DNA of 64,000 nucleotides. Source: Chthoniobacteraceae bacterium. Lineage in GTDB: Bacteria; Verrucomicrobiota; Verrucomicrobiia; Chthoniobacterales; Chthoniobacteraceae. The notes under the pieces were generated by a model, which did not search any database, had not been told where the DNA came from, and worked only from the letters and a program-made list of their open reading frames with translations. How positions within the stretch are numbered: the first letter of the stretch is position 1; each line of letters opens with the position of its first letter. The position numbers were made by a program, and so were the translations under genes. Shown piece after piece: positions 11,306 to 60,588 of this stretch. Location: positions 1-64,000 of the forward strand of contig JBBCKI010000019.1 in NCBI GenBank assembly GCA_037190965.1, read 5' to 3'.

Positions 11306-13486
11306 ATGAGTACGCACTTGTCCCCGCTCGAGTCTCCGCCCCCCGTTTTGGTGACCCGGCCTCCCGCAGTCCCCAACGTATTGGAAGTGCGTCTGCTCAT
11401 GGCCGTCGTCTTCGGGTTGATCGGGATCGCCCTCGGTTCCATCGTTTCCCTGAGCGAGGTGGAAACGGCAACCTTCGGGACGTTCCTGACCGGGCAGATT
11501 CCCTGGGGAGAGGCTCTGGGATCGGTGCTGTTCTGGAAACTATTCGCCGGTTTTGCAGGCGGCGCAACTGCCGGATATTTCATTTCTTTCGAAATTCCCT
11601 GCGAGGACCTGCGCCGGAGCGTTTCCTTCAGCCGTGGGCTTGCCATTTTCCTCCTTGCGGTGGCGGTCTACATCCCGGCCATGTCCGCCGATTACCTTTG
11701 GGACGACGACCAGGAGATCACCGCCAACCCGTCGCTCAGGACGTCCTACGGCCTTTTTGAGATGTGGACGGGGGGAATCACCAACGAACCCGCTCCGGGG
11801 GCCAGCGACCCGCTGCTCGCGAAAATGGTCCGGCCTCCCTTGCAGTGGGTGGAGAAAATGATTTGGGGCGGCACGTGGGGACCGGAGGGACGTCCCAAGG
11901 CGCACGAAAGCGCGGACTATTTCCCGCTCAAGACCACGATGCTCTGGATCGAATATCAACTTTGGGGGTTGAATCCTTGCGGTTACCATGTCGTCAACAT
12001 CGTCCTCCATGCCTTCAACGCGGTCGTGCTCTGGTTGCTTCTGCGGCAGTTGAGCGTTCCGGGAGCCTGGCTGGGCGCGCTTCTTTTCGCGCTGCACCCG
12101 GTGCATGTCGAGTCGGTCGCCTGGATCGCAGAGCGTAAGAACACGCTCTCGCTGCTGTTTTATCTTCTCTCCATCCGCGATTGGCTTCGCTTTGAGGAGA
12201 CGGGCCGGCGGGGCTCCTATGTTTGGGCGCTCGGATTTTTCGCAGCCTCGGCGCTTTGCAAAACTTCCGTGGTCATGCTGCCCGTCGTGCTGCTTCTGAT
12301 CACCTGGTGGCGGACGGGGCAGATGCCCGGGATCGCTTTCTTGATGAGTTTGAAAACCGGCAAGATCAACTGGCGCGATATTGCCCGGTTCATTCCCTTT
12401 TTCGCCGTCGCCGGTCTGCTGGCCGCGATCACCATCTGGTTCCAGAACGGGCGCGCCATCGGCGATGAGGTGATTCCCATCGGCAATTTCTGGTCCCGCC
12501 TGGCCGGCGCTGGCATGGCTGTCTGGTGGTATCTGGGCAAGGCGATTTTGCCGTTGAACCTGACGACCATCTATCCGCGCTGGCCCATCGACCCTCCGCA
12601 AGCGATCCAGTTCGGCGCGGGAGCCTTGGTGCTGGCGTTCGCGTGGCTGCTTTGGGTCAAACGCCAGCAGTGGGGCCGGACACCCTTGTTCGTCTTCGGC
12701 TATTTCGTCGTGACGCTTTTCCCCGTCCTCGGGTTCTTCAAAATGTCGTACATGCGGCTCACGCTCGTGGCGGATCACTTTCAATACTTGAGCGATCTTT
12801 CCATCGTGGCGCTGGCGGGAGCCGGTGCCGCAATGGCCTGGGAGCGGTCCCGCAAAACCGCATTAAGGCCGGTGGTCTTTTCCGTATGTTGCTTGGTTGC
12901 CATTGCGTCTTTTGCGTATAGCTGGGTGCGCGCCGGGGTACATCTTACGCCCAAGACGCTCTGGACCGACGCGCTCAAGCACAATGACGATTCATGGCAG
13001 GCGCATAATCATTTCGGCGCGGTGACCTTCAGTGAAGCAAGGTTGCGCAATGGGGAGGTGGACGAGAAGAAAATGGCGGAAGCGATGAAGCACTTCTATC
13101 GCGCCGTACAACTCAAGCCCGATAACCCCGAAGTCCACAACAACTACGGGCTGACGCTCGCGCATTATGGCCGGTGGGACGAGGCGCTTGCCGAGTATCG
13201 CGAGGCGGTTCGGATCAAGGGTGAAGTACCCGCGATCCGGCAGAACTACATCGGGGCCTTGATGACGGTGGGGCGCTTCAATGACGCCATCGCTCAAATT
13301 GAAATCATGTTGAAAGACCACCCCTACGACCCGGGGGTCCGTGGTCTTTATGGGCAGGCCTTGATGCGGGCGGGGAGTTTCTCGGAAGCGCGGATCCAGC
13401 TTGAAAAGGCCCTGGAGCTCAATCCTGCCGACGGGACGGCGAGGCAGCTCCTGGAGCAGATCCGGAAGAAACACTCGCATTTTTAA
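11306..13486 (+). CDS. TMTC-like GT-C membrane glycosyltransferase with C-terminal TPR repeats
   Basis: Motifs WDD, YFPL, GYHVVNIVLH, FALHPVHVESVAWIAERKN, ADHFQY; TPR tail. Confidence 0.82.
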   Translation: MSTHLSPLESPPPVLVTRPPAVPNVLEVRLLMAVVFGLIGIALGSIVSLSEVETATFGTFLTGQIPWGEALGSVLFWKLFAGFAGGATAGYFISFEIPCEDLRRSVSFSRGLAIFLLAVAVYIPAMSADYLWDDDQEITANPSLRTSYGLFEMWTGGITNEPAPGASDPLLAKMVRPPLQWVEKMIWGGTWGPEGRPKAHESADYFPLKTTMLWIEYQLWGLNPCGYHVVNIVLHAFNAVVLWLLLRQLSVPGAWLGALLFALHPVHVESVAWIAERKNTLSLLFYLLSIRDWLRFEETGRRGSYVWALGFFAASALCKTSVVMLPVVLLLITWWRTGQMPGIAFLMSLKTGKINWRDIARFIPFFAVAGLLAAITIWFQNGRAIGDEVIPIGNFWSRLAGAGMAVWWYLGKAILPLNLTTIYPRWPIDPPQAIQFGAGALVLAFAWLLWVKRQQWGRTPLFVFGYFVVTLFPVLGFFKMSYMRLTLVADHFQYLSDLSIVALAGAGAAMAWERSRKTALRPVVFSVCCLVAIASFAYSWVRAGVHLTPKTLWTDALKHNDDSWQAHNHFGAVTFSEARLRNGEVDEKKMAEAMKHFYRAVQLKPDNPEVHNNYGLTLAHYGRWDEALAEYREAVRIKGEVPAIRQNYIGALMTVGRFNDAIAQIEIMLKDHPYDPGVRGLYGQALMRAGSFSEARIQLEKALELNPADGTARQLLEQIRKKHSHF

Positions 13487-43752: not shown

Positions 43753-44402
43753 ATGGCGAATATTTTCCCGCGTTGGAGTAACCTCCTTCCGCTCAAGCTT
43801 TTGATCTGCGCCGCTGTTTTGGGTGCTGGCTTGACGGGGGGGATCTGGTACTACTTCACCCCCAAGTACACCCGCGTCGGCTACATGCCGGTGCAACCGG
43901 TGCCTTTCTCCCACAAGATCCACGTCGGCCAGTTGGGGCTCGATTGCCGGTATTGCCACAGCTTCGTTGAGGTGGCGGCGCACTCGAACATCCCCAACAC
44001 CCAGACCTGCATGAACTGCCACTCGCAGGTGCAGAAGGAAAACCCGAAGCTCAAGCCGGTTCATGACTCTTGGGCCACCGGGAAGCCGATCGACTGGGTG
44101 CAGATCCACAAAACGCCCGATTACGTCTACTTCAACCACTCCGTTCACGTGAATCGCGGGATCAGCTGCTACAGCTGCCACGGACCGGTCAACGAGATGG
44201 AGGTCGTCTATCACCGCGAACCGCTCAGCATGGCGTGGTGTCTGGACTGTCACCGCAATCCCGAAAACCACCTCAGACCACCCCAGGAGGTCTTCAACCT
44301 CAACTGGCAGCCACCTGCCGGAACGACCCAGAGGAATATTGGTCTGGAGTTGAAAGACAAGTGGAACGTGAACCCGCCTGAGAACTGCGCTGGCTGCCAT
44401 CG

Positions 44403-44406
<4 letters not shown>
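43753..44406 (+). CDS. actA: Alternative complex III pentaheme cytochrome c
   Basis: TM anchor plus five CxxCH motifs; QPVPFSHKIH. Confidence 0.92.
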
Positions 44407-47542
<3,136 letters not shown>

Positions 47543-47543
<1 letters not shown>

Positions 47544-49018
47544 TGGCTAACGGCTCCACAATTTCAGCTCCCGACGAGTACGAGCAGCAGAAAGCTGCCG
47601 TCACCCGGGTTCCACTGGTCACCAATGACCGGAACATCCCCTGGGTCACCCAGCATGTCTCCGACATCGTCGAATCCAGGACGCCCATCTGGTGGTGGGT
47701 GTCGATCTTCTTCACCAGCCTCGTCGCCGCGTTCGGTCTGTTCTGCATCGCTTACCAGATCTCCACTGGCGTCGGCGTCTGGGGTGAGAACCACCCGGTC
47801 GGTTGGGCTTGGGACATCACGAACTTCGTGTTCTGGATCGGTATCGGTCACGCCGGTACCCTCATTTCCGCGATTTTGTTCCTGACTCGTCAGAAATGGC
47901 GTACCTCCATTAACCGCGCCGCCGAGGCGATGACGATCTTTGCGGTCGTTTGCGCCGGTATTTTCCCCGGCATTCACGTCGGTCGCGTCTGGATGGCCTG
48001 GTATCTCGCGCCGCTGCCGAACGCGAACGCCATCTGGCCGAACTTCCGCAGCCCCCTCCTCTGGGACGTGTTTGCGGTCTCGACCTATTTCACGGTGTCT
48101 CTGTTGTTCTGGTACGTCGGTCTGGTTCCTGACCTCGCGACGCTCCGCGACCGGGCCAAGTCGAAGGTTTCCAAGTTCGCTTACGGGCTCTTCGCCCTCG
48201 GCTGGCGCGGCGGCAACCGTCAGTGGCGGCACTACGAGATGGCCTATCTGATCCTGGCCGGTATCTCGACCCCGCTGGTGCTTTCGGTGCACTCCGTCGT
48301 GTCGTTCGACTTCGCGACCTCCGTTCTCCCCGGCTGGCACGCCACCATCTTCCCGCCTTACTTCGTCGCGGGCGCCATTTTCGGCGGGTTTGCCATGGTG
48401 TTGACGATCCTTCTTCCCGCGCGGCTGCTCTATCCGCAGCTCAAGGACATGATCACCCCGCAGCACATCGACAAGATGTGCAAGATCATCCTCCTGACCG
48501 GCAGCATCGTCGGTTACGCCTACGCGATGGAGTTCTTCATGGCATGGTACGGGGCGAACCCTTACGAGATCTGGGTCTTCCTCCGCAACCGCGTGGCGGA
48601 TCCCTACGTGTTCGGTCCGCTTTTCAACGTGCCTCCGGCTCCCTACTGGTGGGCCTACTGGGCCATGATCGGGTGCAACGTGCTTGCCCCGCAGGTCTTC
48701 TGGTTCAAGAAAAACCGCCACAACCTGATTCTCGTTTTCATCATCGTCAACCTGGTCAACGCGGGAATGTGGTTCGAGCGTTTCGTGATCATCGTCACCT
48801 CACTGCACCGCGACTTCCTCCCTTCCTCGTGGGGGATGTTCCACCCGACCTGGGCCGAGATCGGCCTCTTCGTGGGCACCTTCGGGATCTTCCTGACTCT
48901 GTTCCTTCTGTTCATGCGCTTCCTGCCGATGGTCACCATCTTCGAAGTGAAGACGGTATTGCCTGAGGCGGACCCGCACCATCACCCCAACACGCATAAA
49001 GGGGAGGTTTCACACTAA
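47543..49018 (+). CDS. actC: Alternative complex III quinol-oxidising NrfD-like subunit
   Basis: Motifs [35 protein letters not shown]. Confidence 0.94.
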
Positions 49019-49563
49019 TGGCTGAGCATCGAAAAGTTTACGGTATCGCGGCGGAATTCGAGAGTTCCGCAGACCTCATGCACGCTGCCGAGAAGGTGCG
49101 CGACGCAGGGTTCAAACGCTGGGACGTCCACTCGCCCTTCCCGATCCACGGGATGGACGCCGCGATGGGGCTTGGAAAGTCATGGTTGAGCGCTCTCGTT
49201 TTTTGCGGCGGCGTCACAGGCCTGATTACCGCAGCGCTCCTGCAGTTCATTCCTTCGTCGATCATCTACCCGATGATCGTTCACGGAAAGCCGTATGACT
49301 TTATGACGGTCCCGGCGTTCTTCCCGATCATGTTCGAGTTGACGATTCTTCTCTCCGCTGCGGCTTGTATCTCCGGCCTCTGCGTGTTCACTCAACTGCC
49401 GAAGTGGTATCACCCGATGTTCAACTGGGATCGCTTCAACCGCGTGACCGATAACGGGTTCTTCCTCGTCATCGAATCCCGCGATCCGAAATTCTCCGAA
49501 TCAAAAACCCGCCAGTTCCTCGACGAACTCGGGGGATCGCATGTCACCCTGGTGCATGATTAA
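49018..49563 (+). CDS. actD: Alternative complex III subunit D (DUF3341)
   Basis: Motifs SPFPIHG, GKP, PIMFELTIL. Confidence 0.9.
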   Translation: MAEHRKVYGIAAEFESSADLMHAAEKVRDAGFKRWDVHSPFPIHGMDAAMGLGKSWLSALVFCGGVTGLITAALLQFIPSSIIYPMIVHGKPYDFMTVPAFFPIMFELTILLSAAACISGLCVFTQLPKWYHPMFNWDRFNRVTDNGFFLVIESRDPKFSESKTRQFLDELGGSHVTLVHD

Positions 49564-49590: not shown

Positions 49591-50277
49591 ATGCTCAGAT
49601 ATTTCTTTATCAGTTTTACTCTGGCCGTCATCGCAGTGATGGCGATCGCCGGGTTCCGGGGCGAAAAGAGCCGCAAGGCTCCGATCGAGATCTTCCCCGA
49701 CATGGATCGGCAGCCGCGCTATAACGCGCAGCACAAGAGCGACTTCTATGCCGACGGGCGCGCAGCCCGGCAGCATGTGGAAGGTACCGTGCCGCAAGGT
49801 TTTGTTCAGCCAGGGCTGTACTCCACGACCCAGGGAAACAACGCCCGTAAGCTGACGGGGCCGGCGGGATTCGGAAACTTCCCGACTTACGCCGACACCG
49901 GCAAGATCGGCGAAGTTTGGGGCGATGGGATTCCGCTTCCTGAGTTGAACGTTGCCGTTCTTGAACGCGGCCGCGAACGTTACAACATCAGCTGCGCCGT
50001 TTGTCACGGCGAAGTGGGCGATGGCAACGGGGTCGTCTCCAAGTACGGGTTCGGCGGCATCGCCAACCTCCAGGAGGCCCGGTTCCGCACGATGGCCGAC
50101 GGCCATATCTTCCAGACCATCACCCATGGTAAAGGCAACATGGGAGCTTACGGCTCGAACATCACCGTTGAAGACCGTTGGGCAATCATCGCCTACATTC
50201 GCGCGCTGCAGAAGAGCCAGAACGCCAGCATCAACGACGTCCCCGCTCAAATTCTTACAGATTTGGAAAAGCAATGA
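49591..50277 (+). CDS. actE: Alternative complex III monoheme cytochrome c
   Basis: Motifs PDMDRQP, GTVP, CAVCH, DRWAIIAYIRALQ. Confidence 0.9.
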   Translation: MLRYFFISFTLAVIAVMAIAGFRGEKSRKAPIEIFPDMDRQPRYNAQHKSDFYADGRAARQHVEGTVPQGFVQPGLYSTTQGNNARKLTGPAGFGNFPTYADTGKIGEVWGDGIPLPELNVAVLERGRERYNISCAVCHGEVGDGNGVVSKYGFGGIANLQEARFRTMADGHIFQTITHGKGNMGAYGSNITVEDRWAIIAYIRALQKSQNASINDVPAQILTDLEKQ

Positions 50278-51488
50278 GTGATCATTCTCACACACCGGAA
50301 CTTAAGTCCGACTTTTTTGACGGCAGGAAGGCGAACTCCCTCGCGGCCATTTTTGGCGGCGTAGGCGTGGCGGCCCTGATCATCTCGTTGTTTCTCGGGC
50401 TCTACACCGGGGAGGATCTGAGCTTCCGGCAACTCTCCTTTTCATGGCTGTTTGCGGTTGTCTATTTCTTCGCCATTGCTTGCGGTGCGCTGTTCTGGAC
50501 CTTCGTCCACTACGCCACCGATGCAGAGTGGTCGGTTGTCGTTCGCCGTCAGTTGGAGAATCTCGGAACGGTGATGCCGGTCCTCTGTGCGTTCTTCTTC
50601 GCGGGGATCATCTTCTTTGCGCCCTATCTCTTCAAGTGGTGGACCATCCCGCCAGGGGCCGACGAGCTTCTCGACAAGAAAATCGCCTACCTGAACCCGT
50701 CGTTCTTCCTTGGCCGCGCGGTGTTCTACTTCGTCGCTCTCAGTCTGCTCGGAATCTTTATCCGGCGGAACTCGATTAAACAGGACATCGATGGGCACCC
50801 CGCTTACACGGTCCGCAATCGCGTGCTCTCCTTCATCGGGATTCCCGCCGTCGGTCTTTCGCTGACCTTTGCGGCAGTGGACTGGCTCATGAGCCTGGAC
50901 TTCCACTGGTTTTCCACCATGTGGGGTGTCTACATCTTCGCCGGTGGCGTCGGGGGCGCAATGGGAACGCTCGTCCTTCTTGTGACGTGGCTCCGGTCCA
51001 ACGGGCACCTCAAAGGGGTGACCATTGAGCACTACCACATCATGGGCAAGCTGATGCTCGCCTTCTGCGTCTTCTGGGCTTACATCGGCTACAGCCAGTA
51101 TATGCTCATCTGGTACGCGAACATGCCGGAGGAAACGGTTTACTTCATCCGCCGGAATACTGAAACGTGGTGGTACCTGAGCTTGGCTCTCGTGATCTTC
51201 CGCTTTTTCCTTCCTTTCCCTGTTCTCCTCTTTCAGGCGACCAAGAAGAATCCAAAATGGCTCTGCCTCGTCGCGGCGTGGCTCCTCATCATGCAGGCCC
51301 TCGATCTCTACATCGTCATCATGCCGATGTTGCATGTGAAGGGTGTTGATTTCACCTTCCTCGACGTGACTTGCTTCGTGGCTGTAGGCGGCATCGTGGC
51401 GGCCTACTTCCTCTGGAGACTTCCCAAAACCAATTTGTTCCCGGCTCGCGATCCGCGTCTCCCGGAATCCCTCCGTCTTACCAATTAG
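50274..51488 (+). CDS. actF: Alternative complex III membrane subunit F
   Basis: Motifs DWLMSL, WFSTMWG, SQYMLIWYANMPEE, DPRL. Confidence 0.9.
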   Translation: MSDHSHTPELKSDFFDGRKANSLAAIFGGVGVAALIISLFLGLYTGEDLSFRQLSFSWLFAVVYFFAIACGALFWTFVHYATDAEWSVVVRRQLENLGTVMPVLCAFFFAGIIFFAPYLFKWWTIPPGADELLDKKIAYLNPSFFLGRAVFYFVALSLLGIFIRRNSIKQDIDGHPAYTVRNRVLSFIGIPAVGLSLTFAAVDWLMSLDFHWFSTMWGVYIFAGGVGGAMGTLVLLVTWLRSNGHLKGVTIEHYHIMGKLMLAFCVFWAYIGYSQYMLIWYANMPEETVYFIRRNTETWWYLSLALVIFRFFLPFPVLLFQATKKNPKWLCLVAAWLLIMQALDLYIVIMPMLHVKGVDFTFLDVTCFVAVGGIVAAYFLWRLPKTNLFPARDPRLPESLRLTN

Positions 51489-51489
51489 T

Positions 51490-51990
51490 ATGGCTCAACC
51501 AAGAACAGCGCGTATCGGCCTCGGCTTTATCTGGGGTATATTGGGCTTCTGCCTGCTCGGACTGCTTGTCGCGATCTTCCGCGGTGGGCCTACCCCCGGT
51601 GACGCTTACGAAGATCAACGTGCCGCAGAGCGGACCAAGCGGCTTGCCGAGCTGCGCGAGGAAGCGCATGCGAAGCTTACGAAGTATGCGGTCGATAAGG
51701 AGAAGAAGACCGCACAGATCCCGATCGAGCGCGCCATGGAGCTGACGCTCAAGGATCTGGTTGCCAAGGGAATTTCCCCCAGTGCCGAGAAGGCCGAGAT
51801 CGTCCCGAGCCTCTTGGTTCCTCCGTATCTGAAGCCAGCCGTCGCAACCGAAGCTGCTCCGCAAGAAGCAGCGCCCGCTGCTTCGGCGGCTCCCATCCCT
51901 GCCGCTGCCGAACCGACGCCCGCCAGCCAGCCCAGCCCGGCTGCCGAGCCCCAAACTCCCGCCACCCCGGCTGCTCCCAGCGAGAACTAG
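51490..51990 (+). CDS. ActG-like small membrane subunit with Pro/Ala tail
   Basis: One TM helix, LTKY..D...QIPIERAM motif, position directly after actF. Confidence 0.7.
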   Translation: MAQPRTARIGLGFIWGILGFCLLGLLVAIFRGGPTPGDAYEDQRAAERTKRLAELREEAHAKLTKYAVDKEKKTAQIPIERAMELTLKDLVAKGISPSAEKAEIVPSLLVPPYLKPAVATEAAPQEAAPAASAAPIPAAAEPTPASQPSPAAEPQTPATPAAPSEN

Positions 51991-52001
51991 AATTTTTTTC
52001 A

Positions 52002-53519
52002 ATGAGCGTGCCTTCCACAGTTACTCGACAGTCCTCCGGGAGAGAAGTGATCCCCGGCGAACTCGAACAGGTTGAACGGGCGTCAATCGATGCCTCCGCG
52101 CGGGTCCCCGTGCTAACCTTTTATGCCTCAGCGGTATTCTGGCTTCTGGTCCAGACCGTTCTCGGCGTGATCAACGCCGTCAAGGTCCAGTGGCCGGAGT
52201 TTCTCGACGGCTGCGCCTGGCTGACTTTTGGCCGACTCTTTCCGGTCCAGAACAGTCTGATGATTTACGGCTGGGCGAGCCTTGCCGGTATCGGCACCGC
52301 CCTCTGGATTCTTGCGCGCCTTTGCCGCGTTGCCCTTCCGAAGCCGGCGATGCTGCTCACGGGAACGATGCTCTGGAACGTGGCGCTGATCGCGGGCTCC
52401 CTCGAGATCCTCGCCGGGAACGGACGCGGGTTGATTTATCTGGAGTTTCCGAGGTACGTCTTCGGGCTTCTCTTCGTCGCCTATAGTATAGTGGCGGTGT
52501 GGGGAGTAATCCTGTTTTTCAATCGCCGCCCCGGGCATATCTACATTTCCGCGTGGTATCTCATCGCGGCGCTCTTCTGGTTCCCTTGGCTCGTCGGTGG
52601 CACGAACCTTCTGCTCGGCTCCGGGCTTCCCGGTGCGGCCGGTGTTCAGGGGGTGATGCAGGCGATCGTCAATGCGTGGTTCGCACAGAACGTGATCAAT
52701 CTCTGGTTGAGCGCGATTGGCTTGGGTGCCATTTACTACCTTGTTCCGAAGGTGGTTGGCCGCCCGATTCATAGTTATCACCTTGCTTCTGTCGGTTTTT
52801 GGTCGTTCGCGATCTTCTCGGTCTGGACCGGCGGCCAGCGCCTTGCCGGTGGCCCTGTTCCTGCCTGGGTCATCACCGTGGGGATCGTCGCGGCGATCCT
52901 GATGCTCATCCCCGTCGCCACCGTGACGGCCAATTACTTCATGACGATGAAGGGCAAGTTCAATCTTGTCTATCACAGCCCGACCATCCGGTTCGTGTTC
53001 TTCGGGGCCGTGGCTTACACGCTCGCCAATCTCGTGTTGGTGGCGGGTTCCTTCCGCAGCCTCAGCAACATCACCCAGTACACCTGGTTTACGGTGGGCA
53101 GCGATTACCTCTTCATCTACGGCTTCTACTCGATGGTGATGTTCGGGGCGATGTACTACATTATCCCGCGTCTGGTCGGCTGCGAATGGCTCTCCGCCAG
53201 TTTCATCAAGCTCCACTTCTGGGGCACCGCTTACGGATGGGGAATGACCATCGCCATGCTGCTGCTGGCCGGTTACTCACAAGGGCAGATGCTGGCGAAC
53301 GTGCATGAGGTTCATGCGACCAACGCCGGGGCTGACTTCATGCTTTCGGTATCCGCAGCGTTGCCGTTCCTCCGTGGACGCAGCATCGCCCAGATCCTAC
53401 TCTGCGTCGGCCAACTCTTCTTTGCCCTTAACTTCCTGCTGATGTTGCTGCGTCTTGGCCGTCCAAGCGGAGCCCAGCCCACCCTGTTCGCACCCATCCA
53501 CGAAGGAGCCAAGTCGTGA
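52002..53519 (+). CDS. CcoN-like (cbb3 subunit I homologue) lacking metal-ligand histidines
   Basis: CcoN scaffold motifs (LTFGRL, YYLVPK..RPIHSY, LHFW) present; ligand His positions replaced. Confidence 0.85.
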   Translation: MSVPSTVTRQSSGREVIPGELEQVERASIDASARVPVLTFYASAVFWLLVQTVLGVINAVKVQWPEFLDGCAWLTFGRLFPVQNSLMIYGWASLAGIGTALWILARLCRVALPKPAMLLTGTMLWNVALIAGSLEILAGNGRGLIYLEFPRYVFGLLFVAYSIVAVWGVILFFNRRPGHIYISAWYLIAALFWFPWLVGGTNLLLGSGLPGAAGVQGVMQAIVNAWFAQNVINLWLSAIGLGAIYYLVPKVVGRPIHSYHLASVGFWSFAIFSVWTGGQRLAGGPVPAWVITVGIVAAILMLIPVATVTANYFMTMKGKFNLVYHSPTIRFVFFGAVAYTLANLVLVAGSFRSLSNITQYTWFTVGSDYLFIYGFYSMVMFGAMYYIIPRLVGCEWLSASFIKLHFWGTAYGWGMTIAMLLLAGYSQGQMLANVHEVHATNAGADFMLSVSAALPFLRGRSIAQILLCVGQLFFALNFLLMLLRLGRPSGAQPTLFAPIHEGAKS

Positions 53520-54187
53520 AGCCTACGCCACTTCTTTTTGCCGGAATCTTTGCTTCGTTTGCCGCCGCCTGGCTTGGTCTGATCGTCGCGTCTGACACGC
53601 AGATCGGTAACCTCCAGCCGCAGGTTGACGAAGAGAACGCCGATGTTTACCCGATCAACGTAGCCGGACTCGCCGAGCAAGGCCGCCGCGTCTACATTGC
53701 CAATGGTTGCAACTATTGCCACACGCAATTGGTTCGCGAACCCCATGCCGGCCCGGACATCGCGCGGGAATGGGGCACCCGCCGCACGGTTGCCCGGGAC
53801 TACATTTACGAGAGCGGCGCTGTCATCGGGTTCATGCGAAACGGTCCGGATCTCGCCAACATCGGCGCTCCCAAGGCTGAGAATTCAAGACGGGGCTACG
53901 TCAATGATCCGAAGTGGCAGTACGCGCATCTTTACAATCCGCGCGCGACCACCCCGGCTTCAAACATGCCCGCCTATCGCTATCTCTTCGAGAAGAGGAA
54001 GATTAGTGGCGAGCGCTCCGAGAACGCGCTGAACCTGACGGAAGCCGACGGAGTTGAGGCCGGTTACGAAATGGTCCCCAACAATGACGCCAAGGCGCTC
54101 GTCGCCTACCTCCTCTCTTTGGATAGGAGCCATCCCTTAAAAGAAGTCAAAGGAGCCGCGCCTGCCCCCGCCGCTGCTGCCAAGTGA
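53516..54187 (+). CDS. CcoO-like membrane-anchored monoheme cytochrome c
   Basis: Motifs GRRVYIANGCNYCHTQ, RNGPDLA, HLYNPR, SNMPAY. Confidence 0.88.
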   Translation: MKPTPLLFAGIFASFAAAWLGLIVASDTQIGNLQPQVDEENADVYPINVAGLAEQGRRVYIANGCNYCHTQLVREPHAGPDIAREWGTRRTVARDYIYESGAVIGFMRNGPDLANIGAPKAENSRRGYVNDPKWQYAHLYNPRATTPASNMPAYRYLFEKRKISGERSENALNLTEADGVEAGYEMVPNNDAKALVAYLLSLDRSHPLKEVKGAAPAPAAAAK

Positions 54188-54906
54188 GCACGAAGAGCCC
54201 AGATCCTTTAATGCCCATGCAACCAGGAGAAGACGAAATTGATTATCGCGAAACGGCCGATGTGACGCGTGTCCACGGCGCAGTGAAGCGCGAGCACAAG
54301 GAACCGGAGGCGGGCATCGTCCCGGTGCCGGTCTGGTGGTTTGCCGTGGTCATCCTTGTGACCTTCGGAGCCGCCTTCTACTTCGGACAGTTCGGCGGCG
54401 GCTTCAGTGGGGAAGTCTTCAATGAACGCGAAGGTTCGCTGGCTGCCGGCGCGAAAGAAGGCGGTGCTGCCGCCGGGGCGGAAGCTGCCAAAGAGCAATC
54501 CCTCGCCGAGATCGGCAAAAAGGTTTTCAACCAGAACTGCGCTTCCTGCCATCAGGCTAACGGGCTGGGGCTCCCCGGCACTTATCCTCCCTTGGCGGCA
54601 TCGCACTGGGTCAGTGGTTCCACCAAGCGTCTGACGGCGCTCGTCCTTAAGGGGATGCAGGGGCCCGTTGTGATCGAAGGGAAGAGTTACAATGGAGCGA
54701 TGCCCGCCTGGGGCCGCGACTTCAACGACAAGAAGATGGCGGCCGTCCTGAGCTACATTCGCTCGGCCTGGGGCAACACGGCGGGAGAGATCACTCCCGA
54801 ACAGGTCGCCGTGGTTCGGGCAGAGTTCGCCAGCCGGACAGAGTCATTCGCTCCGCCGGAGTTGGAAGCCATTACGGAGGATATCCCCGCGGTACCCGCC
54901 CCTTAA
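54184..54906 (+). CDS. Membrane-anchored monoheme cytochrome c
   Basis: TM helix; motifs CASCH, YPPLA, YNGAMP, SYIRSAWGN. Confidence 0.88.
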   Translation: MSTKSPDPLMPMQPGEDEIDYRETADVTRVHGAVKREHKEPEAGIVPVPVWWFAVVILVTFGAAFYFGQFGGGFSGEVFNEREGSLAAGAKEGGAAAGAEAAKEQSLAEIGKKVFNQNCASCHQANGLGLPGTYPPLAASHWVSGSTKRLTALVLKGMQGPVVIEGKSYNGAMPAWGRDFNDKKMAAVLSYIRSAWGNTAGEITPEQVAVVRAEFASRTESFAPPELEAITEDIPAVPAP

Positions 54907-54909
54907 ATC

Positions 54910-54937
54910 TTGCCATAATTAGTAGAATTTATATAAT
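54910..54937 (+). promoter_or_regulatory. Sigma70-type promoter upstream of cox1
   Basis: TTGCCA-N16-TATAAT in an AT-rich patch. Confidence 0.65.
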
Positions 54938-55108
54938 CCCTGAAACCCCAGCCATCCCGGCGTCTTCTGCGCGGTATTCTGCAGCAAAAGCTCTCTCTTG
55001 AGCGAGCGTCTGGACGGCGTAAGTTCGCCCCGTCGAATTTGCTGCGGTCCTCAAAAGACCGCGGGTTTCACACATTTCAGCGTCGCCAAAGCCTCAGCAA
55101 TCACACCC

Positions 55109-56920
55109 ATGGAAATCTCAACGCACTCTTCGCACTCCGGTGCGGGACATGATGATGGTCATCACGACCATCACGAGCTCGGCTTTTGGAGCAAATATGT
55201 CTTCTCCACCGATCACAAGGTGATCGGTATCCAGTACGGGCTCTCCGGGCTTCTTTTCCTGTTCCTCGGCTTCTGCTTGATGATGCTGATGCGATGGCAG
55301 CTTGCCTACCCAGGCCAGGCACTTCCGTATTTTGGGGCCGTTCTTGCCAAGGTGTTTCCTCAAGAAATGCCCAACGGCATCATGACGCCGGACTTCTATA
55401 ACTCCCTCGGCGCCATGCACGGGACGATCATGGTCTTCCTCGGCATCGTTCCTGTCTCCTTCGCGGCGTTCGGTAACTATGTCGTCCCGCTCCAGATCGG
55501 CGCACCCGACATGGCGTTCCCCAAGCTGAACATGGCAAGCTTCTGGGTATTCTTTATCGGCGGCGTCATCATGCTCATCAGCTTCTTCGTTCCCGGCGGA
55601 GCGGCGAAGAGCGGCTGGACCTCCTATCCTCCTCTTGCCAACATTGCGGACACCGGCCCCGCGTTCCACCACATCTGGAACGGCCAGACGCTCTGGTTGA
55701 TGGGCATGGTCTTCCTGATCACCTCCTCGCTGCTTGGCTCGGTGAACATCATTACCACGGTGATCCAGCTTCGCGCTCCCGGGTTGACCTGGATGCGCCT
55801 CCCGTTCTTCACCTGGGCGATCCTGGTGACCTCCTATATTCTCCTCCTCGCGTTTCCTCCGCTTGAAGCCGCCGGCATCATGCAGTTGATGGATCGTGTC
55901 GCAGGTACCTCGTTCTTCAGTCCGAACGGCTTGATCGTCAGCAGCCTCGGTGGCCAGCTCGACATCAGCGGTGGCGGCAGCCCGCTTCTGTGGCAGCACC
56001 TCTTCTGGTTCCTCGCGCACCCGGAAGTTTACGTTCTTATTCTTCCCGCGCTAGGAATTGTGGCCGAAGTTATCGCCAACAACACCCGCAAGCCGCTCTG
56101 GGGCTACAAGGCGATGGTCTTCTCCGCCCTTTTCCTCGGGTTCCTCTCGTTCCTTGTCTGGGCGCACCACATGTATCTCACGGGCATGGGTACCAAGGTG
56201 AGCGCTTTCTTCCAGACGACCACCATCATGATTTCGGTGCCGTCGGTCATTATTCTCACGGCGCTTCTGATCTCGCTCTGGGGAGGGTCCATCCGTTTCA
56301 CCACGCCGATGCTCTTCGCGACGGCGTTCCTCCCGATGTTCGGCATCGGCGGTCTGACGGGTCTGCCCCTGGCGTTCAACTCGCTGGACGCCTACCTCCA
56401 CGACACCTACTACATCATCGGTCACTTTCACTATATCGTCGCGCCCGGTACGATCTTCGGCATCTTCGCAGGGGTCTACTACTGGTATCCCAAGATGACG
56501 GGCCGCACGATGAGCGACACGCTCGGTAAGCTCCACTTCTGGGGTTCGCTCATTACGATCAACGGCATCTTCTTCCCGATGTTCCTCCAGGGTATGGCGG
56601 GGATGCACCGCCGCTGGTATGACGGCGGCCATGTTTACGAACAGATCAGCGGGCCGATGCTCCACTGGAACAGCTTCATGTCCTGGTCGGCATGGTTGCT
56701 TGGCATTGTTCAGATCTTCTTCATCATCAACGTCTTCTGGAGCATCCGGAATGGCCGCAAGGTGAACACGAATCCCTGGGATGCGACGACCCTCGACTGG
56801 AGCACTCCGTCGCCCCCTCCTCACGGCAACTTCGACAAGCCGGTTACGGTTTATCGTGGGCCGTATGAATACAGCGTCCCCGGTGCCGCTAAGGATTTCT
56901 CTCCCCAGGCAGAAGCATAA
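55109..56920 (+). CDS. coxA: Cytochrome c oxidase subunit I, A1-type
   Basis: Motifs STDHK, MHGT, GWTSYPPL, HPEVY, WAHHM, HDTY, GHFHY; all six His ligands present. Confidence 0.96.
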   Translation: MEISTHSSHSGAGHDDGHHDHHELGFWSKYVFSTDHKVIGIQYGLSGLLFLFLGFCLMMLMRWQLAYPGQALPYFGAVLAKVFPQEMPNGIMTPDFYNSLGAMHGTIMVFLGIVPVSFAAFGNYVVPLQIGAPDMAFPKLNMASFWVFFIGGVIMLISFFVPGGAAKSGWTSYPPLANIADTGPAFHHIWNGQTLWLMGMVFLITSSLLGSVNIITTVIQLRAPGLTWMRLPFFTWAILVTSYILLLAFPPLEAAGIMQLMDRVAGTSFFSPNGLIVSSLGGQLDISGGGSPLLWQHLFWFLAHPEVYVLILPALGIVAEVIANNTRKPLWGYKAMVFSALFLGFLSFLVWAHHMYLTGMGTKVSAFFQTTTIMISVPSVIILTALLISLWGGSIRFTTPMLFATAFLPMFGIGGLTGLPLAFNSLDAYLHDTYYIIGHFHYIVAPGTIFGIFAGVYYWYPKMTGRTMSDTLGKLHFWGSLITINGIFFPMFLQGMAGMHRRWYDGGHVYEQISGPMLHWNSFMSWSAWLLGIVQIFFIINVFWSIRNGRKVNTNPWDATTLDWSTPSPPPHGNFDKPVTVYRGPYEYSVPGAAKDFSPQAEA

Positions 56921-56931
56921 TTTTCTCTACA

Positions 56932-57807
56932 ATGGAAATTCCATATACAGTCAAGCCGAGGCCGGACACGGGTCTCTGGAATGCGAAGATCGGCATCTGG
57001 CTCTTCCTCGCCTCGGAAGTGATGCTCTTCGGCGGTCTCTTTTCGGCATACATTTTCCTGCGTCTCGGCGCGGAACCGGGTTATTGGCCCAAGGGTCTTT
57101 TGAACGTTCCGGTCGGCACCATCAATACGGCCATCCTGATCGCCTCTTCGGTCAGCGTGGTTTTTGCCTGGGCGGCGCTCAAGATGCGGAACTTCAAGCG
57201 GTATCGCCTCTGCATGATGTTCACCCTGTTGTGCGGGGTGGTCTTCCTCGGGGTGAAGCTCGGTTACGAGTGGCCCGCCAAGTACCATCATTTCGGCGCT
57301 TTCATCAAACCGGAAGCCCGTGCCAAGTACGAAGAGTTCCTGGGCAACGAGCACCTGGCTGCGAAGGGGTTGCACCCCCGTGTCGAAATTAGCGGACACC
57401 TGGAGAACCACGACGCCCTGCATGACAAGGAGATCAAGGAATACCACATCCGGCTGGATGCGGTGAACGCGGACCCGACCTCTCCCGCCAACGATCACCC
57501 GCACTTCTGGCCTCGCCCGATGTCGGACAAGGTGGCGCACGTCGCGAAGGAAGACGTCCAGTGGGCAAGCATGTTCCTGCCCAAACACAGCACTTACTTT
57601 GCCGTATACTACACGATCACCGGTCTGCACGGGTTGCACGTCTTGGGCGGTCTGGTCATGTTTGCGTACTTCCTGCTTCCGGTCAGCACGCGCCTTTACC
57701 AGAAGGATCCCGATCATCTGGCGAACCGGATCGAAGTGGTGGGACTTTTCTGGCACTTCGTCGACCTCGTCTGGATTTTCGTTTTCCCGCTGTTCTATCT
57801 CCTCTAG
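56932..57807 (+). CDS. coxC: Cytochrome c oxidase subunit III with an internal soluble insertion
   Basis: Motifs FLASEVMLF, TGLHGLHV, FWHFVDLVW. Confidence 0.92.
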   Translation: MEIPYTVKPRPDTGLWNAKIGIWLFLASEVMLFGGLFSAYIFLRLGAEPGYWPKGLLNVPVGTINTAILIASSVSVVFAWAALKMRNFKRYRLCMMFTLLCGVVFLGVKLGYEWPAKYHHFGAFIKPEARAKYEEFLGNEHLAAKGLHPRVEISGHLENHDALHDKEIKEYHIRLDAVNADPTSPANDHPHFWPRPMSDKVAHVAKEDVQWASMFLPKHSTYFAVYYTITGLHGLHVLGGLVMFAYFLLPVSTRLYQKDPDHLANRIEVVGLFWHFVDLVWIFVFPLFYLL

Positions 57808-57826: not shown

Positions 57827-58180
57827 ATGAGCGATCCTCATCAACACGGCTCTCCCGCTACCGCGGCCGATCACCCGGTTCCGCATGACGCCGCGCATTT
57901 CCACGACCATTCCAAGCTTTACCTCGGGGTTGGGGCAGCCCTGCTGGTCCTGACGGCGGCCACGGTCGGACTGTCGTATGTTCATTTCGGCTCCGAAGAA
58001 ATGAACATTCTGATCGGCATGCTCCTCGCGACCTTCAAGGCCTCGCTGGTGGCGTTGATTTTCATGCACCTCAAGGAAGAAAAGATGACCATTTACCAGT
58101 TCATGCTCGCGACGATGGTGTTCGTCACCGGGCTGTTCCTTTTGACGCTCCTGGCGTTCAAAGATCACATCGTCCTCTGA
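57827..58180 (+). CDS. coxD: Cytochrome c oxidase subunit IV
   Basis: KASLVALIFMHLK; three TM helices. Confidence 0.88.
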   Translation: MSDPHQHGSPATAADHPVPHDAAHFHDHSKLYLGVGAALLVLTAATVGLSYVHFGSEEMNILIGMLLATFKASLVALIFMHLKEEKMTIYQFMLATMVFVTGLFLLTLLAFKDHIVL

Positions 58181-59619: not shown

Positions 59620-60588
59620 ATGCAACCGGCTAAACTCTGGCTATCCCGCTACGCAAAGTTCGTCGTCGTCTTCACACTGTTTCTGATTTCAGTGGGTGGC
59701 ACGGTGACGACCAAGAAGGCGGGGCTGGCAGTGCCGGATTGGCCCACCAGCTTCGGGTACAACATGTTCACTCTCCCGTTCCACTTTTGGGAGGGGGACG
59801 CTCTTTTGGAGCATTCGCATCGCCTGGTTGGCTCCGTGATGGGGATGCTGGTCATTGGCCTTTTGATCTGGACGGCCTGCGTGGAACGACGCTCGTGGGT
59901 CAAGCAGCTCACCTGGGTCGCGTTGGTCATGGTGATTGTGCAAGGGATCATGGGCGGGCTGCGCGTCACGGAGCTCTCCATTGCCTGGGCCATCGTCCAC
60001 GGCTGCACGGCTCAAGCCTTTCTTTGTCTTTTGCTCCTGATCGCGGTTGCGCTCTCGCCGGAATGGGACCGTCCTCTGGCTGCTTCGGTGAGCCCGGCGC
60101 GCGTGGCGAATTGGCGGCACTGGGCCTGGATCGTCGTCGGTGCCGTTTTTCTTCAGTTGTTTTTGGGGGCCTTCATGAGGCACATCGATGCCGGGCTGGC
60201 GATTCCGACCTTCCCTCTCACCCCCGAAGGGACCTTCATGCCGACCGTGCATAACAAGCACGTCGATATTCACTTCGCCCATCGTTTCTGGGCTCTGGTG
60301 GTGACGGTGCTTGTTGGAATCCTGACCACCAAGGTGCTCCGGTCCGCATGGGCGGAAAGGCGCTTCCGTCGACCCGCATTGGGCCTCATCGTGCTTCTGA
60401 TCGTTCAGATTGCACTTGGAGCCTCGATTATCTGGACCCAACGCGCTTCCCATCCGACGACTCTCCACGTGGTGAACGGTGCCGTGGTGCTGGCATTGAG
60501 CTTTCTTCTGGGCATTCGGGCGAACCGTTTTTCCAAGGCCCATAACGATCAACCTTTTTCGGCCTCCCCCACGCCGCTTCAAGCATGA
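59620..60588 (+). CDS. ctaA: Heme A synthase
   Basis: Motifs AGLAVPDWP, EHSHR, HFAHR, LHV. Confidence 0.9.
   Translation: MQPAKLWLSRYAKFVVVFTLFLISVGGTVTTKKAGLAVPDWPTSFGYNMFTLPFHFWEGDALLEHSHRLVGSVMGMLVIGLLIWTACVERRSWVKQLTWVALVMVIVQGIMGGLRVTELSIAWAIVHGCTAQAFLCLLLLIAVALSPEWDRPLAASVSPARVANWRHWAWIVVGAVFLQLFLGAFMRHIDAGLAIPTFPLTPEGTFMPTVHNKHVDIHFAHRFWALVVTVLVGILTTKVLRSAWAERRFRRPALGLIVLLIVQIALGASIIWTQRASHPTTLHVVNGAVVLALSFLLGIRANRFSKAHNDQPFSASPTPLQA

What the first reader, a model, noticed from the sequence alone, without database searches (positions are those of the whole stretch)
52002..53519. Full-length cbb3 subunit I homologue that has lost every heme/copper ligand (pseudo-oxidase)
Seen: an intact 505-aa ORF whose motifs map onto CcoN but with the ligands replaced. 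FGRLFPVQN replaces FGRLRPLHT (heme b His); WFAQN replaces WYGHN (CuB His); SVWTGGQRL replaces YIWAGPHHL (cross-linked Tyr and two CuB His); TVGSDY replaces TIGHVH (heme b3 and heme b His); VGFW replaces VHFW in the proton channel. Established: those six His are invariant in active heme-copper oxidases and NO reductases. Inference: it cannot reduce O2, yet it has no frameshift and is translationally coupled to a CcoO with an intact heme site. It is probably retained as a membrane scaffold/adaptor or has another, non-redox role.
Basis: partly seen in the sequence, partly recalled or inferred. Interest (0 to 1): 0.9.

Follow-up and report, generated by a model that had tools for sequence, protein, structure and literature searches.

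The report
Metal-free cbb3 oxidase subunit on ACIII
This intact, selected gene encodes a copy of the oxygen-reducing subunit of a cbb3 oxidase that has lost every haem and copper ligand, so it is most likely a structural part of the alternative complex III machinery and not the oxidase that databases call it.

Summary
ORF 52002-53519 (505 aa) aligns end to end with P. stutzeri CcoN. All six metal-ligand His, the cross-linked Tyr and two proton-path residues are replaced. The 12-helix fold is kept (pLDDT 91; TM 0.84/0.91 to 3MK7).

It is not decay. dN/dS is 0.12-0.20 against its closest orthologues, like the ACIII and aa3 genes beside it. It sits in a fixed operon, ActABCDEF-u166-CcoN'-CcoO'-cyt c. 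Among 72 distinct ligand-poor Chthoniobacterales loci, ActF lies upstream in 56 of 56 and CcoO' downstream in 65 of 66. Both partner cytochromes keep CxxCH.

Relatives with all six His occupy the same operon slot in other Verrucomicrobiota, Gemmatales and Burkholderiales. The loss happened in steps. The binuclear centre went first. Udaeobacter-like relatives still keep both haem b ligands. The window's sub-clade then also lost the haem b pocket. A second ligand-poor clade exists and probably arose independently.

Best reading: a non-catalytic scaffold for c-type cytochromes on ACIII.

This scan has found the family before on other genomes. My eight literature searches found no description of it.

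The parts
43753..44406 (+). ActA, pentahaem cytochrome c of ACIII
   Evidence: Pfam Cytochrome_C7/c3; five CxxCH and no sixth haem domain
44403..47543 (+). ActB, Fe-S subunit of ACIII with a TAT signal
   Evidence: Pfam Fer4 families and TAT_signal
47543..49018 (+). ActC, NrfD-like membrane subunit
   Evidence: Pfam NrfD, E 9e-18
49018..49563 (+). ActD
   Evidence: Pfam ActD PF11821, E 1e-57
49591..50277 (+). ActE, monohaem cytochrome c
   Evidence: Pfam Cytochrome_CBB3/Cytochrom_C; one CxxCH
50178..51488 (+). ActF-like membrane subunit. The start is uncertain; a likely ATG lies at 50274.
   Evidence: Named from its position after ActE and conserved synteny. No Pfam hit except a chance-level one.
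51490..51990 (+). u166: a protein with a hydrophobic N-terminal stretch that looks like one transmembrane helix, and a Pro/Ala-rich tail. No known family.
   Evidence: Sequence read; no topology tool was run. No Pfam or NCBIfam match, even at E 5. 64 complete tblastn-matched ORFs among loci L001-L080. A hit between ActF and CcoN' in some six-His loci too.
52002..53519 (+). psN: a CcoN-like 12-helix protein without haem b, haem b3 or CuB ligands (the finding)
53516..54187 (+). CcoO-like monohaem cytochrome c. Its GTG start overlaps the psN stop (GTGA).
   Evidence: Pfam FixO, E 5e-21. CxxCH present in 72 of 72 homologues. C65, C68 and H69 invariant and M151 near-invariant. Predicted to dock on psN.
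54184..54906 (+). Membrane-anchored monohaem cytochrome c, like the C-terminal part of CcoP. Its GTG start overlaps the CcoO-like stop.
   Evidence: Pfam Cytochrome_CBB3; TIGR00782 ccoP partial match to profile positions 195-280. CxxCH present in 64 of 64 homologues.
54910..54937 (+). Promoter-like site TTGCCA-16-TATAAT in the gap before the aa3 genes
   Evidence: 11 of 12 consensus matches; one of only 2 such sites in 17.5 kb. This is a consensus match only.
54998..56920 (+). A-type oxidase subunit I (CoxI) with canonical ligand motifs; start uncertain
   Evidence: Pfam COX1, E 4.5e-135; TIGR02891; sequence read
56932..57807 (+). CoxIII
   Evidence: Pfam COX3
57827..58180 (+). CoxIV
   Evidence: Pfam COX4_pro; TIGR02229
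58619..59518 (+). CoxII with a C-x3-C-x3-H-x2-M stretch that I read as the CuA motif (motif recalled), and no cytochrome c domain
   Evidence: TIGR02866; no CxxCH; C-x3-C-x3-H-x2-M present
59620..60588 (+). Haem A synthase-like gene (weak match)
   Evidence: NF045570, E 3.5e-10, far below cut-off

Best explanation
psN is a non-catalytic descendant of a C-family (cbb3-like) oxygen reductase that was already encoded in the ACIII operon. In the window's lineage it has lost the CuB-haem b3 centre, the cross-linked Tyr, two proton-path residues and, in a second step, the low-spin haem b pocket. It therefore binds no redox metal and cannot reduce O2 (shown from sequence). It is kept as a 12-helix membrane subunit that holds the CcoO-like cytochrome c, and probably the CcoP-like cytochrome c, next to ACIII (inferred). 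These two membrane-anchored haems c would then take electrons from ActA/ActE and pass them to a real oxidase (inferred). In this genome the obvious acceptor is the aa3 oxidase encoded directly downstream. Its subunit II has a CuA motif but no haem c domain, and the ACIII ActA has no sixth haem. The dead oxidase module would thus supply the linking haem that ActA supplies in F. johnsoniae and caa3 subunit IIc supplies in R. marinus.
For: Ligand loss: alignment to 3mk7_A and to the genome's own canonical CcoNO.

Fold: kept, with pLDDT 91.1 and pTM 0.91. Foldseek's top hit is 3mk7_A at TM 0.84/0.91, rmsd 2.6 A, 25% identity.

Selection: NG86 dN/dS is 0.115, 0.137 and 0.195 against L001, L003 and L002. 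The family median is 0.154 over 1308 pairs with dS below 1.5. Comparable values are ActC 0.11, ActD 0.152, CoxI 0.175, ActB 0.196 and ActF 0.294.

Synteny in 72 distinct ligand-poor loci: ActF directly upstream in 56 of 56 with at least 2.5 kb of flank; CcoO-like directly downstream in 65 of 66.

Partners: CxxCH in 72 of 72 CcoO-like and 64 of 64 cytochrome c homologues. 4-nt GTGA overlaps join the three genes.

Ancestry: six-His, Tyr-bearing relatives occupy the same slot after ActF in Opitutales, Puniceicoccales, Limisphaerales, Pedosphaerales, Terrimicrobiales, Gemmatales and Burkholderiales. The ligand-poor proteins form one clade of 73 rows (support 100) nested among them.

Targeted change: 17 columns are at least 95% conserved in the six-His relatives but at most 20% kept in the ligand-poor set. 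They include H229, S262, Y273, H279, H280 and H367. Several are replaced by bulky or charged residues: H280 to R in 70 of 73, G233 to F in 58 of 73, H367 to Y in 56 of 73. In the window's 14-row sub-clade a further 14 columns are lost, including H83, H369 and R80, with G371 replaced by L/F and G464 by W/Q.

Docking: predicted psN-CcoO-like complex has ipSAE 0.89 (three runs 0.90, 0.88, 0.89; partner pLDDT 80-81; runs agree in at least 90% of contacts). The best of three controls is 0.01. That mark was reached by 116 of 157 solved complexes and 2 of 215 mismatched pairs. The psN loop 76-81 touches CcoO-like residues 61-68 around the CxxCH.

Need for a linking haem: ActA has five CxxCH and CoxII has none. 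Passages of PMC5928083 and PMC8552683 describe the extra haem c in the solved ACIII-oxidase supercomplexes.

Redundancy: the genome has a separate canonical fused CcoNO and two A-type oxidases.
Against: No experiment and no expression data exist. No RNA run was listed.

The complex prediction may pass from memory of solved CcoN-CcoO structures. The predicted interface residues are no more conserved than the rest of the protein: 0.763 against 0.791, Mann-Whitney p 0.82.

Contact between psN and ACIII or aa3 was not tested.

The link to an adjacent aa3 oxidase is not general. CoxI lies downstream in 24 of 40 Chthoniobacterales-type ligand-poor loci, but in only 1 of 36 loci of the second ligand-poor clade. 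These counts are also not phylogenetically independent.

Both cytochromes appear from their sequences to have their own membrane helix (read; no topology tool was run). It is therefore unclear why a 505-aa anchor is needed.

dS is near saturation (1.0-1.8), so the dN/dS values are rough.
Confidence: 0.6

Rival explanations
1. psN has a new role unrelated to holding cytochromes. It could be an ion or proton conduit, or a conformational coupling or assembly subunit of ACIII. The cytochromes would then be merely co-inherited.
For: 63 columns are at least 95% conserved in both the six-His and the ligand-poor relatives. Many of them differ from the canonical CcoNO, for example D30, S32, P65, E395 and W396. 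This points to a subfamily-specific surface or function that survived cofactor loss. The clade gained conserved residues, including R280 in 70 of 73 rows at a former CuB ligand site. Whether ACIII translocates protons is reported as open in the passages of PMC8498564 that I read.
Against: Two positions on the C-family proton path, by my recalled assignment of that path, are dismantled: S262 is Ala in 73 of 73 rows and Y273 is lost. H243 was already Gly in the six-His relatives. The CcoO-like partner stays translationally coupled, keeps its haem motif, and is predicted to dock as in cbb3.
Confidence: 0.2
2. psN still carries a redox cofactor through non-canonical ligands and takes part in electron transfer or catalysis.
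For: In the sister Udaeobacter-like clade, 42 rows keep both haem b axial His and 12 further positions shared with the six-His forms. Haem b was therefore retained long after the catalytic centre was lost. In some HCO families one active-site His is replaced, as in gNOR (PMC11214002, passages read).
Against: In the window's protein both haem b His are gone (Q83, Y369). R80 is replaced by F, and Gly residues of the pocket are replaced by larger ones (G371 to F, G464 to Q, G51 to Q). Only H405 is conserved in the 14-row sub-clade and beyond, and it is also present in the genome's own canonical CcoNO. No conserved Met or Cys pair replaces the ligands.
Confidence: 0.08
3. The gene is a slowly decaying relic with no function, carried along by the operon.
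For: It evolves faster than the catalytic paralogue. Canonical CcoNO homologues are 78-93% identical to the genome's own copy in the 120 listed hits. psN homologues of the same order are about 46-52% identical.
Against: There are no frameshifts or stops in 77 complete orthologous ORFs. dN/dS is 0.12-0.20, equal to that of neighbouring functional genes. The clade holds 73 rows and is old (stem branch 0.24-0.34). The fold is predicted with high confidence from its own family alignment.
Confidence: 0.05

Closest known systems
CcoN, subunit I of cbb3-type (C-family) cytochrome c oxidase, e.g. Pseudomonas stutzeri 3MK7/5DJQ
   Same: The 12-helix fold (TM 0.84/0.91, rmsd 2.6 A). Sequence homology over residues 37-478 (E 1e-39). 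A CcoO-like haem c partner encoded directly downstream and predicted to dock in the same way.
   Different: All six His ligands, the cross-linked Tyr, S240 and H243 are replaced. It scores 173 bits against the 583-bit cut-off of TIGR00780. It is encoded at the end of an ACIII operon rather than in a ccoNOQP operon.
ACIII-linked C-family oxidase subfamily with all six His and the Tyr. This is the 'cbb3 next to ACIII' noted for verrucomicrobial methanotrophs and Opitutaceae in PMC8498564, citing Refojo 2010 (passages read; Refojo 2010 itself not seen).
   Same: The same operon slot after ActF, the same CcoO-like and cytochrome c partners, the same Gly at the canonical H243 position, and 63 shared columns at least 95% conserved. 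The window's clade is nested within this subfamily.
   Different: Those proteins keep the pattern HHGYHHHH in 82 of 82 loci and are presumably active oxidases. The window's protein has none of the ligands.
ACIII-aa3 and ACIII-caa3 supercomplexes of Flavobacterium johnsoniae and Rhodothermus marinus
   Same: An ACIII operon followed by A-type oxidase genes. A membrane-tethered haem c is needed between the ActA/ActE haems and CuA (passages of PMC5928083 and PMC8552683).
   Different: There the linking haem is an extra domain of ActA or of oxidase subunit IIc. Here neither exists, and a dead oxidase with two cytochromes c lies between the two gene sets.
Catalytically dead enzyme homologues kept as structural subunits of respiratory complexes, such as the peptidase-like core proteins of mitochondrial complex III (recalled, not checked here)
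   Same: An enzyme fold retained under selection after loss of its active-site residues, as part of a larger electron-transfer complex.
   Different: Here the dead enzyme is itself a former terminal oxidase, and membership in the complex is inferred from gene order only.
gNOR and other HCO families with altered active sites (PMC11214002)
   Same: Members of the haem-copper oxidoreductase superfamily that depart from the canonical ligand set.
   Different: Those families change one ligand or the Tyr and keep the metals. psN keeps none. The paper's passages and its section 5, which I read, do not mention a ligand-free family.

Membership tests
C-family haem-copper oxidase subunit I (CcoN) | 12-helix COX1 fold and detectable homology | tested here: met
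   PF00115 at 169 bits against a 34.8-bit cut-off. Foldseek 3mk7_A TM 0.84/0.91.
C-family haem-copper oxidase subunit I (CcoN) | Two His axial ligands of low-spin haem b (P. stutzeri H60, H347) | tested here: not met
   Q83 and Y369. The surrounding pocket columns are also changed.
C-family haem-copper oxidase subunit I (CcoN) | His ligand of haem b3 (H345) and three His ligands of CuB (H207, H257, H258) | tested here: not met
   S367, Q229, Q279 and R280
C-family haem-copper oxidase subunit I (CcoN) | Cross-linked active-site Tyr in helix 7 (Y251) | tested here: not met
   S273. Tyr is present in 82 of 82 six-His relatives.
C-family haem-copper oxidase subunit I (CcoN) | NCBIfam equivalog score (TIGR00780) | tested here: not met
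   172.9 bits against a cut-off of 583.15
C-family haem-copper oxidase subunit I (CcoN) | Adjacent CcoO monohaem cytochrome c partner | tested here: met
   PF02433 at 75.7 bits against 29.6. CxxCH and Met kept. ipSAE 0.89 against a best control of 0.01; 116 of 157 solved complexes and 2 of 215 mismatched pairs reached the mark.
C-family haem-copper oxidase subunit I (CcoN) | O2 reduction activity and bound haem b and Cu | not testable with these tools
   Needs purified protein
Alternative complex III operon (ActABCDEF) | ActA pentahaem, ActB Fe-S, ActC NrfD-like, ActD, ActE monohaem and ActF, in that order | tested here: met
   Pfam hits for ActA-E. ActF is named from position and synteny only.
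Subunit of the ACIII complex (physical membership of psN) | Co-purification or a structural contact with ActC/ActD/ActF | not tested
   Only gene order supports it: 56 of 56 loci.

The most novel reading that the evidence does not exclude
In Verrucomicrobiota, ACIII is built as a fixed unit with a C-type oxidase. That oxidase half has been converted at least twice independently into a metal-free supernumerary subunit. The conversion passed through a stage that keeps only low-spin haem b and still exists in Udaeobacter-like soil bacteria. ACIII plus a dead oxidase plus two cytochromes c would then be a new kind of quinol:cytochrome c module, and a natural series of stepwise cofactor loss in a respiratory enzyme.
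Probability: 0.35. Interest if true: 0.8.

Novelty: new variant of a known kind. Interest (0 to 1): 0.62.

Why it matters
Databases label these genes 'cbb3-type cytochrome c oxidase subunit I' (source names). The presence of cbb3 genes is commonly read as a capacity for microaerobic respiration; the abstract of PMC8407424 states this practice. My loci include more than 130 distinct ligand-poor copies in soil and freshwater Verrucomicrobiota, Udaeobacter-type bacteria among them. For those organisms that inference would be wrong.

Mechanistically, the family offers a natural experiment on what an oxidase scaffold does without its metals. It also bears on how ACIII hands electrons to its partners, which the passages I read describe as unresolved. 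The stepwise series is directly testable by spectroscopy on a few purified complexes: six His, then haem b only, then no ligand.

Tried and rejected
RNA evidence: no RNA holder was listed for window:50178-54906.

Interface conservation: residues of the predicted psN-CcoO-like interface are no more conserved than the rest (0.763 against 0.791, p 0.82; loops only 0.774 against 0.784, p 0.60). This gave no extra support.

The 'aa3 takeover' idea: I first thought that loss of the catalytic centre was tied to the arrival of an aa3 operon downstream, because CoxI follows in 24 of 40 ligand-poor loci against 1 of 51 six-His loci. The second ligand-poor clade has CoxI downstream in only 1 of 36 loci. 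Adjacency is therefore a feature of the Chthoniobacterales clade and not a general rule.

Number of losses: FastTree on 221 rows needs 2 changes. IQ-TREE LG+G4 on 59 rows joined the two ligand-poor clades with support 45. The careful LG+C20+F+G4 (PMSF) tree separates them at 99/99 and 99/98. The AU test does not reject a single clade at 0.05 (delta lnL 20.1, p 0.062). Two losses are favoured but not proven.

u166: no Pfam or NCBIfam family, even at E 5.

Alternative ligands: a search for conserved His, Met or Cys found only H405, which the genome's own canonical CcoNO also has.

Literature: eight searches (and this scan's notes) and passages of six papers. No description of a ligand-free CcoN turned up. 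Subscription-journal papers, including Refojo 2010 and Ducluzeau 2008, and the supplements of PMC11214002 were not seen and might bear on this.

Decay: considered and rejected on the dN/dS values and the absence of broken copies.
Full report

The ORF at 52002-53519 on the + strand is open and encodes 505 aa. It matches Pfam COX1 over residues 37-464 (E 2e-49). In NCBIfam it matches the cbb3 subunit I equivalog at only 173 bits against a cut-off of 583. Its best solved relative is P. stutzeri CcoN (3mk7_A, E 1e-39).

- H60 becomes Q83.
- H207 becomes Q229.
- H243 becomes G265.
- Y251 becomes S273.
- H257 becomes Q279 and H258 becomes R280.
- H345 becomes S367 and H347 becomes Y369.

The roles of these residues as ligands are established knowledge of the C-family structure, which I recall and did not test here.

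The genome is 97% complete. It encodes a separate canonical fused CcoNO of 808 aa on another contig, with every canonical motif intact, and two A-type oxidases. The organism therefore does not read or build such proteins oddly.

THE PROTEIN IS FOLDED AND SELECTED, NOT DECAYING

AlphaFold2, run with the family alignment, gives mean pLDDT 91.1 and pTM 0.91. I read the helices of that model as twelve transmembrane helices. Foldseek puts 3mk7_A first (TM 0.84/0.91, rmsd 2.6 A, 25% identity).

Nei-Gojobori dN/dS against the three closest orthologues is 0.115, 0.137 and 0.195. Over 1308 pairs with dS below 1.5 the median is 0.154. That is the same range as the neighbouring genes: ActC 0.11, ActD 0.152, CoxI 0.175, ActB 0.196, ActF 0.294. 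dS is near saturation, so these ratios are rough.

All 77 complete orthologous ORFs used were intact.

The protein does evolve faster than the catalytic paralogue. The 120 listed relatives of the genome's canonical CcoNO are 78-93% identical to it. psN relatives in the same order are about 46-52% identical.

THE CONTEXT IS FIXED

The window reads ActA-ActB-ActC-ActD-ActE-ActF-u166-psN-CcoO-like-cytochrome c. A gap with a promoter-like site follows, and then CoxI-CoxIII-CoxIV-CoxII and a weak haem A synthase match.

psN, the CcoO-like gene and the cytochrome c gene are joined by 4-nt GTGA overlaps.

I pooled 158 GTDB-representative loci from two searches and reduced them to 154 distinct proteins. 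Of these, 72 have at most two of the six His. Among those 72:
- ActF lies directly upstream in 56 of 56 loci with at least 2.5 kb of flank.
- A CcoO-like gene lies directly downstream in 65 of 66 loci with at least 1 kb of flank.

Every CcoO-like homologue (72 of 72) and every downstream cytochrome c homologue (64 of 64) keeps a CxxCH. In the CcoO-like alignment C65, C68 and H69 are invariant and M151 is nearly so.

ACTIVE-LOOKING RELATIVES SIT IN THE SAME SLOT

A search of 1.84 billion cluster representatives returned 150 proteins, all scoring 210-520 bits. P. stutzeri CcoN scores 140 bits against the same query in the separate PDB search. With the query itself that makes 151 proteins. Of these:
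- 79 have no His at the six ligand columns.
- 48 have one His.
- 14 have two.
- 5 have three to five.
- 5 have all six.

I then searched genomes with an alignment of the six-His forms. The search patterns contained the His motifs, so this set is enriched for them by construction. All 78 new loci show the pattern HHGYHHHH. Most Verrucomicrobiota, Gemmatales and Burkholderiales loci among them have the full ActA-F set upstream and the same two cytochromes downstream.

In the pooled set the distribution is bimodal. There are 82 proteins with six His, 43 with two, 13 with one, 16 with none, and none with three to five.

All six-His forms already have Gly at the canonical H243 position.

THE LOSS WAS STEPWISE

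In a FastTree of 156 rows the ligand-poor proteins form one clade of 73 rows (support 100), nested among six-His Verrucomicrobiota forms.

Seventeen columns are at least 95% conserved in the six-His set but at most 20% kept in the ligand-poor set. They include the three CuB His, the haem b3 His, the Tyr and S262 (Ala in 73 of 73). Several replacements are bulky or charged: H280 to R in 70 of 73, G233 to F in 58 of 73, H367 to Y in 56 of 73, and F76 to W in 56 of 73. I read this as filling of the emptied binuclear pocket. That is an inference.

Within the clade, a 58-row Udaeobacter-like branch mostly keeps both axial His of haem b (42 rows with the pattern HNG[SA]QRYH). The window belongs to a 14-row Chthoniobacteraceae branch that has lost them. 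Its own 4-row sub-clade (the window and L001-L003; support 100) has none of the six His.

Fourteen columns are shared by the six-His and the haem-b-only rows but lost in the window's branch. They include H83, H369, R80, W225 and a His pair at 312-313. Three Gly residues are replaced by larger ones: G371 to L/F, G464 to W/Q and G51 to A/Q.

So the binuclear centre went first and the haem b pocket second. The window's protein represents the end state.

A SECOND LIGAND-POOR CLADE EXISTS

A search with diverse ligand-poor representatives gave 65 new distinct proteins, 59 of them with at most two His. Most are from Limisphaerales/Pedosphaerales-type Verrucomicrobiia. Among the 59:
- ActF lies upstream in 51 of 51.
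- A CcoO-like gene lies downstream in 55 of 55.
- An A-type CoxI lies downstream in only 1 of 36.

The trees disagree on whether this is a separate loss:
- FastTree on 221 rows needs two losses.
- A quick LG+G4 tree of a 59-row subset, chosen by me, joined the two clades with support 45.
- The careful LG+C20+F+G4 PMSF tree places each clade with six-His relatives of its own host group, at 99/99 and 99/98.
- The AU test of a single clade gives delta lnL 20.1 and p 0.062.

Two independent losses are favoured but not proven.

HOW IT MOST LIKELY WORKS

Shown: psN lacks every canonical ligand. It has only one universally conserved His (H405), which the genome's own canonical CcoNO also has. It therefore cannot be a haem-copper oxidase.

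Supported by prediction: it still binds the CcoO-like cytochrome.
- Median ipSAE is 0.89 over three runs, which agree in at least 90% of contacts. Partner pLDDT is 80-81.
- The best of three controls scores 0.01.
- That mark was reached by 116 of 157 solved complexes and 2 of 215 mismatched pairs.
- The psN loop 76-81 lies against the CxxCH region 61-68.

Because CcoN-CcoO complexes are solved, this pass may show likeness only. The predicted interface is no more conserved than the rest of the protein.

Inferred: the module keeps two membrane-anchored haems c beside ACIII as its electron outlet.

In this window ActA has only five haems, and CoxII has a C-x3-C-x3-H-x2-M stretch, which I read as a CuA motif (recalled), but no haem c. 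In the two solved ACIII-oxidase supercomplexes an extra haem c bridges the complexes. It is a domain of ActA in F. johnsoniae and subunit IIc in R. marinus (passages of PMC5928083 and PMC8552683). The CcoO-like and CcoP-like cytochromes are the obvious candidates for that bridge here.

The aa3 genes probably form a separate transcription unit. A TTGCCA-16-TATAAT site lies in the gap at 54910-54937. This is a consensus match only.

COMPARISON WITH WHAT IS KNOWN

The passages I read in two papers on verrucomicrobial methanotrophs treat the 'cbb3' next to ACIII as a working C-type oxidase (PMC6688271 and PMC8498564). The six-His forms fit that description, but the ligand-poor ones do not.

The survey of new HCO families (PMC11214002; passages and section 5) lists families that lack the Tyr or one His. 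It lists none without any ligand.

My searches found no description of this family. Subscription papers and supplements were not seen.

Earlier notes of this scan describe the same family on at least ten other windows and reach the same scaffold reading. I formed my reading before seeing them, and I tested the claims independently here.

- the bimodal ligand census;
- the ordered two-step loss, with its coordinated pocket columns;
- the second clade;
- the finding that aa3 adjacency is clade-specific.

VERDICT

The scaffold or relay mechanism is the best-supported inference, and I hold it at about 0.6. This is a new variant of a known kind: a cofactor-free member of the C-family oxidases fixed in the ACIII operon.

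Noticed in passing
L083:514-2940 (- strand) = G000 contig C23: The same genome carries a canonical fused CcoN-CcoO of 808 aa with all ligand motifs. An ORF that ends with a CxxCH motif at the locus edge follows it, and I took this for a CcoP. The organism therefore keeps a real high-affinity oxidase apart from the dead one.
   Followed up: partly
window 54910-54937: The best sigma-70-like match in 17.5 kb (TTGCCA-16-TATAAT, 11 of 12) lies exactly in the gap between the cytochrome c gene and CoxI. This suggests that the aa3 genes are transcribed separately from the ACIII-psN operon.
   Followed up: partly
window 51490-51990: u166 is a protein with a hydrophobic N-terminal stretch and a Pro/Ala-rich tail. 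64 complete tblastn-matched ORFs were found among loci L001-L080, and some six-His loci have a hit between ActF and the CcoN-like gene. It matches no Pfam or NCBIfam family, even at E 5.
   Followed up: partly
psN alignment columns 312-313 (window residues Y312, F313): A His-His pair is at least 95% conserved in the six-His ACIII-linked forms and present in 42 of 42 haem-b-only forms. It is absent from the canonical CcoNO (G, L) and from the window's clade. Its role is unknown.
   Followed up: no
window 56932-57807: CoxIII (291 aa) matches Pfam COX3 in two separated stretches (reported stretches 19-110 and 218-291), with about 100 unmatched residues between them. There is also a weak DUF420 hit.
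   Followed up: no
L053, L100, L107, L184, L190, L205, L215 and others: Several loci with typical Verrucomicrobiota ACIII-CcoN' operons carry record titles such as Dormiibacterota, Akkermansia muciniphila, Bifidobacterium or Saccharimonadales. These are probably mis-binned or mislabelled MAG contigs.
   Followed up: no
L102, L113, L122, L130, L145 (about 12900-13000 in the 21-kb loci): In six-His Terrimicrobiales/Chthoniobacterales loci a CoxII-like gene directly follows the cytochrome c gene. L055 (same contig as L108) and L056 also have a weak CoxI-like match (44-45% identity) after the CoxII-like gene. This may be an intermediate gene arrangement.
   Followed up: no
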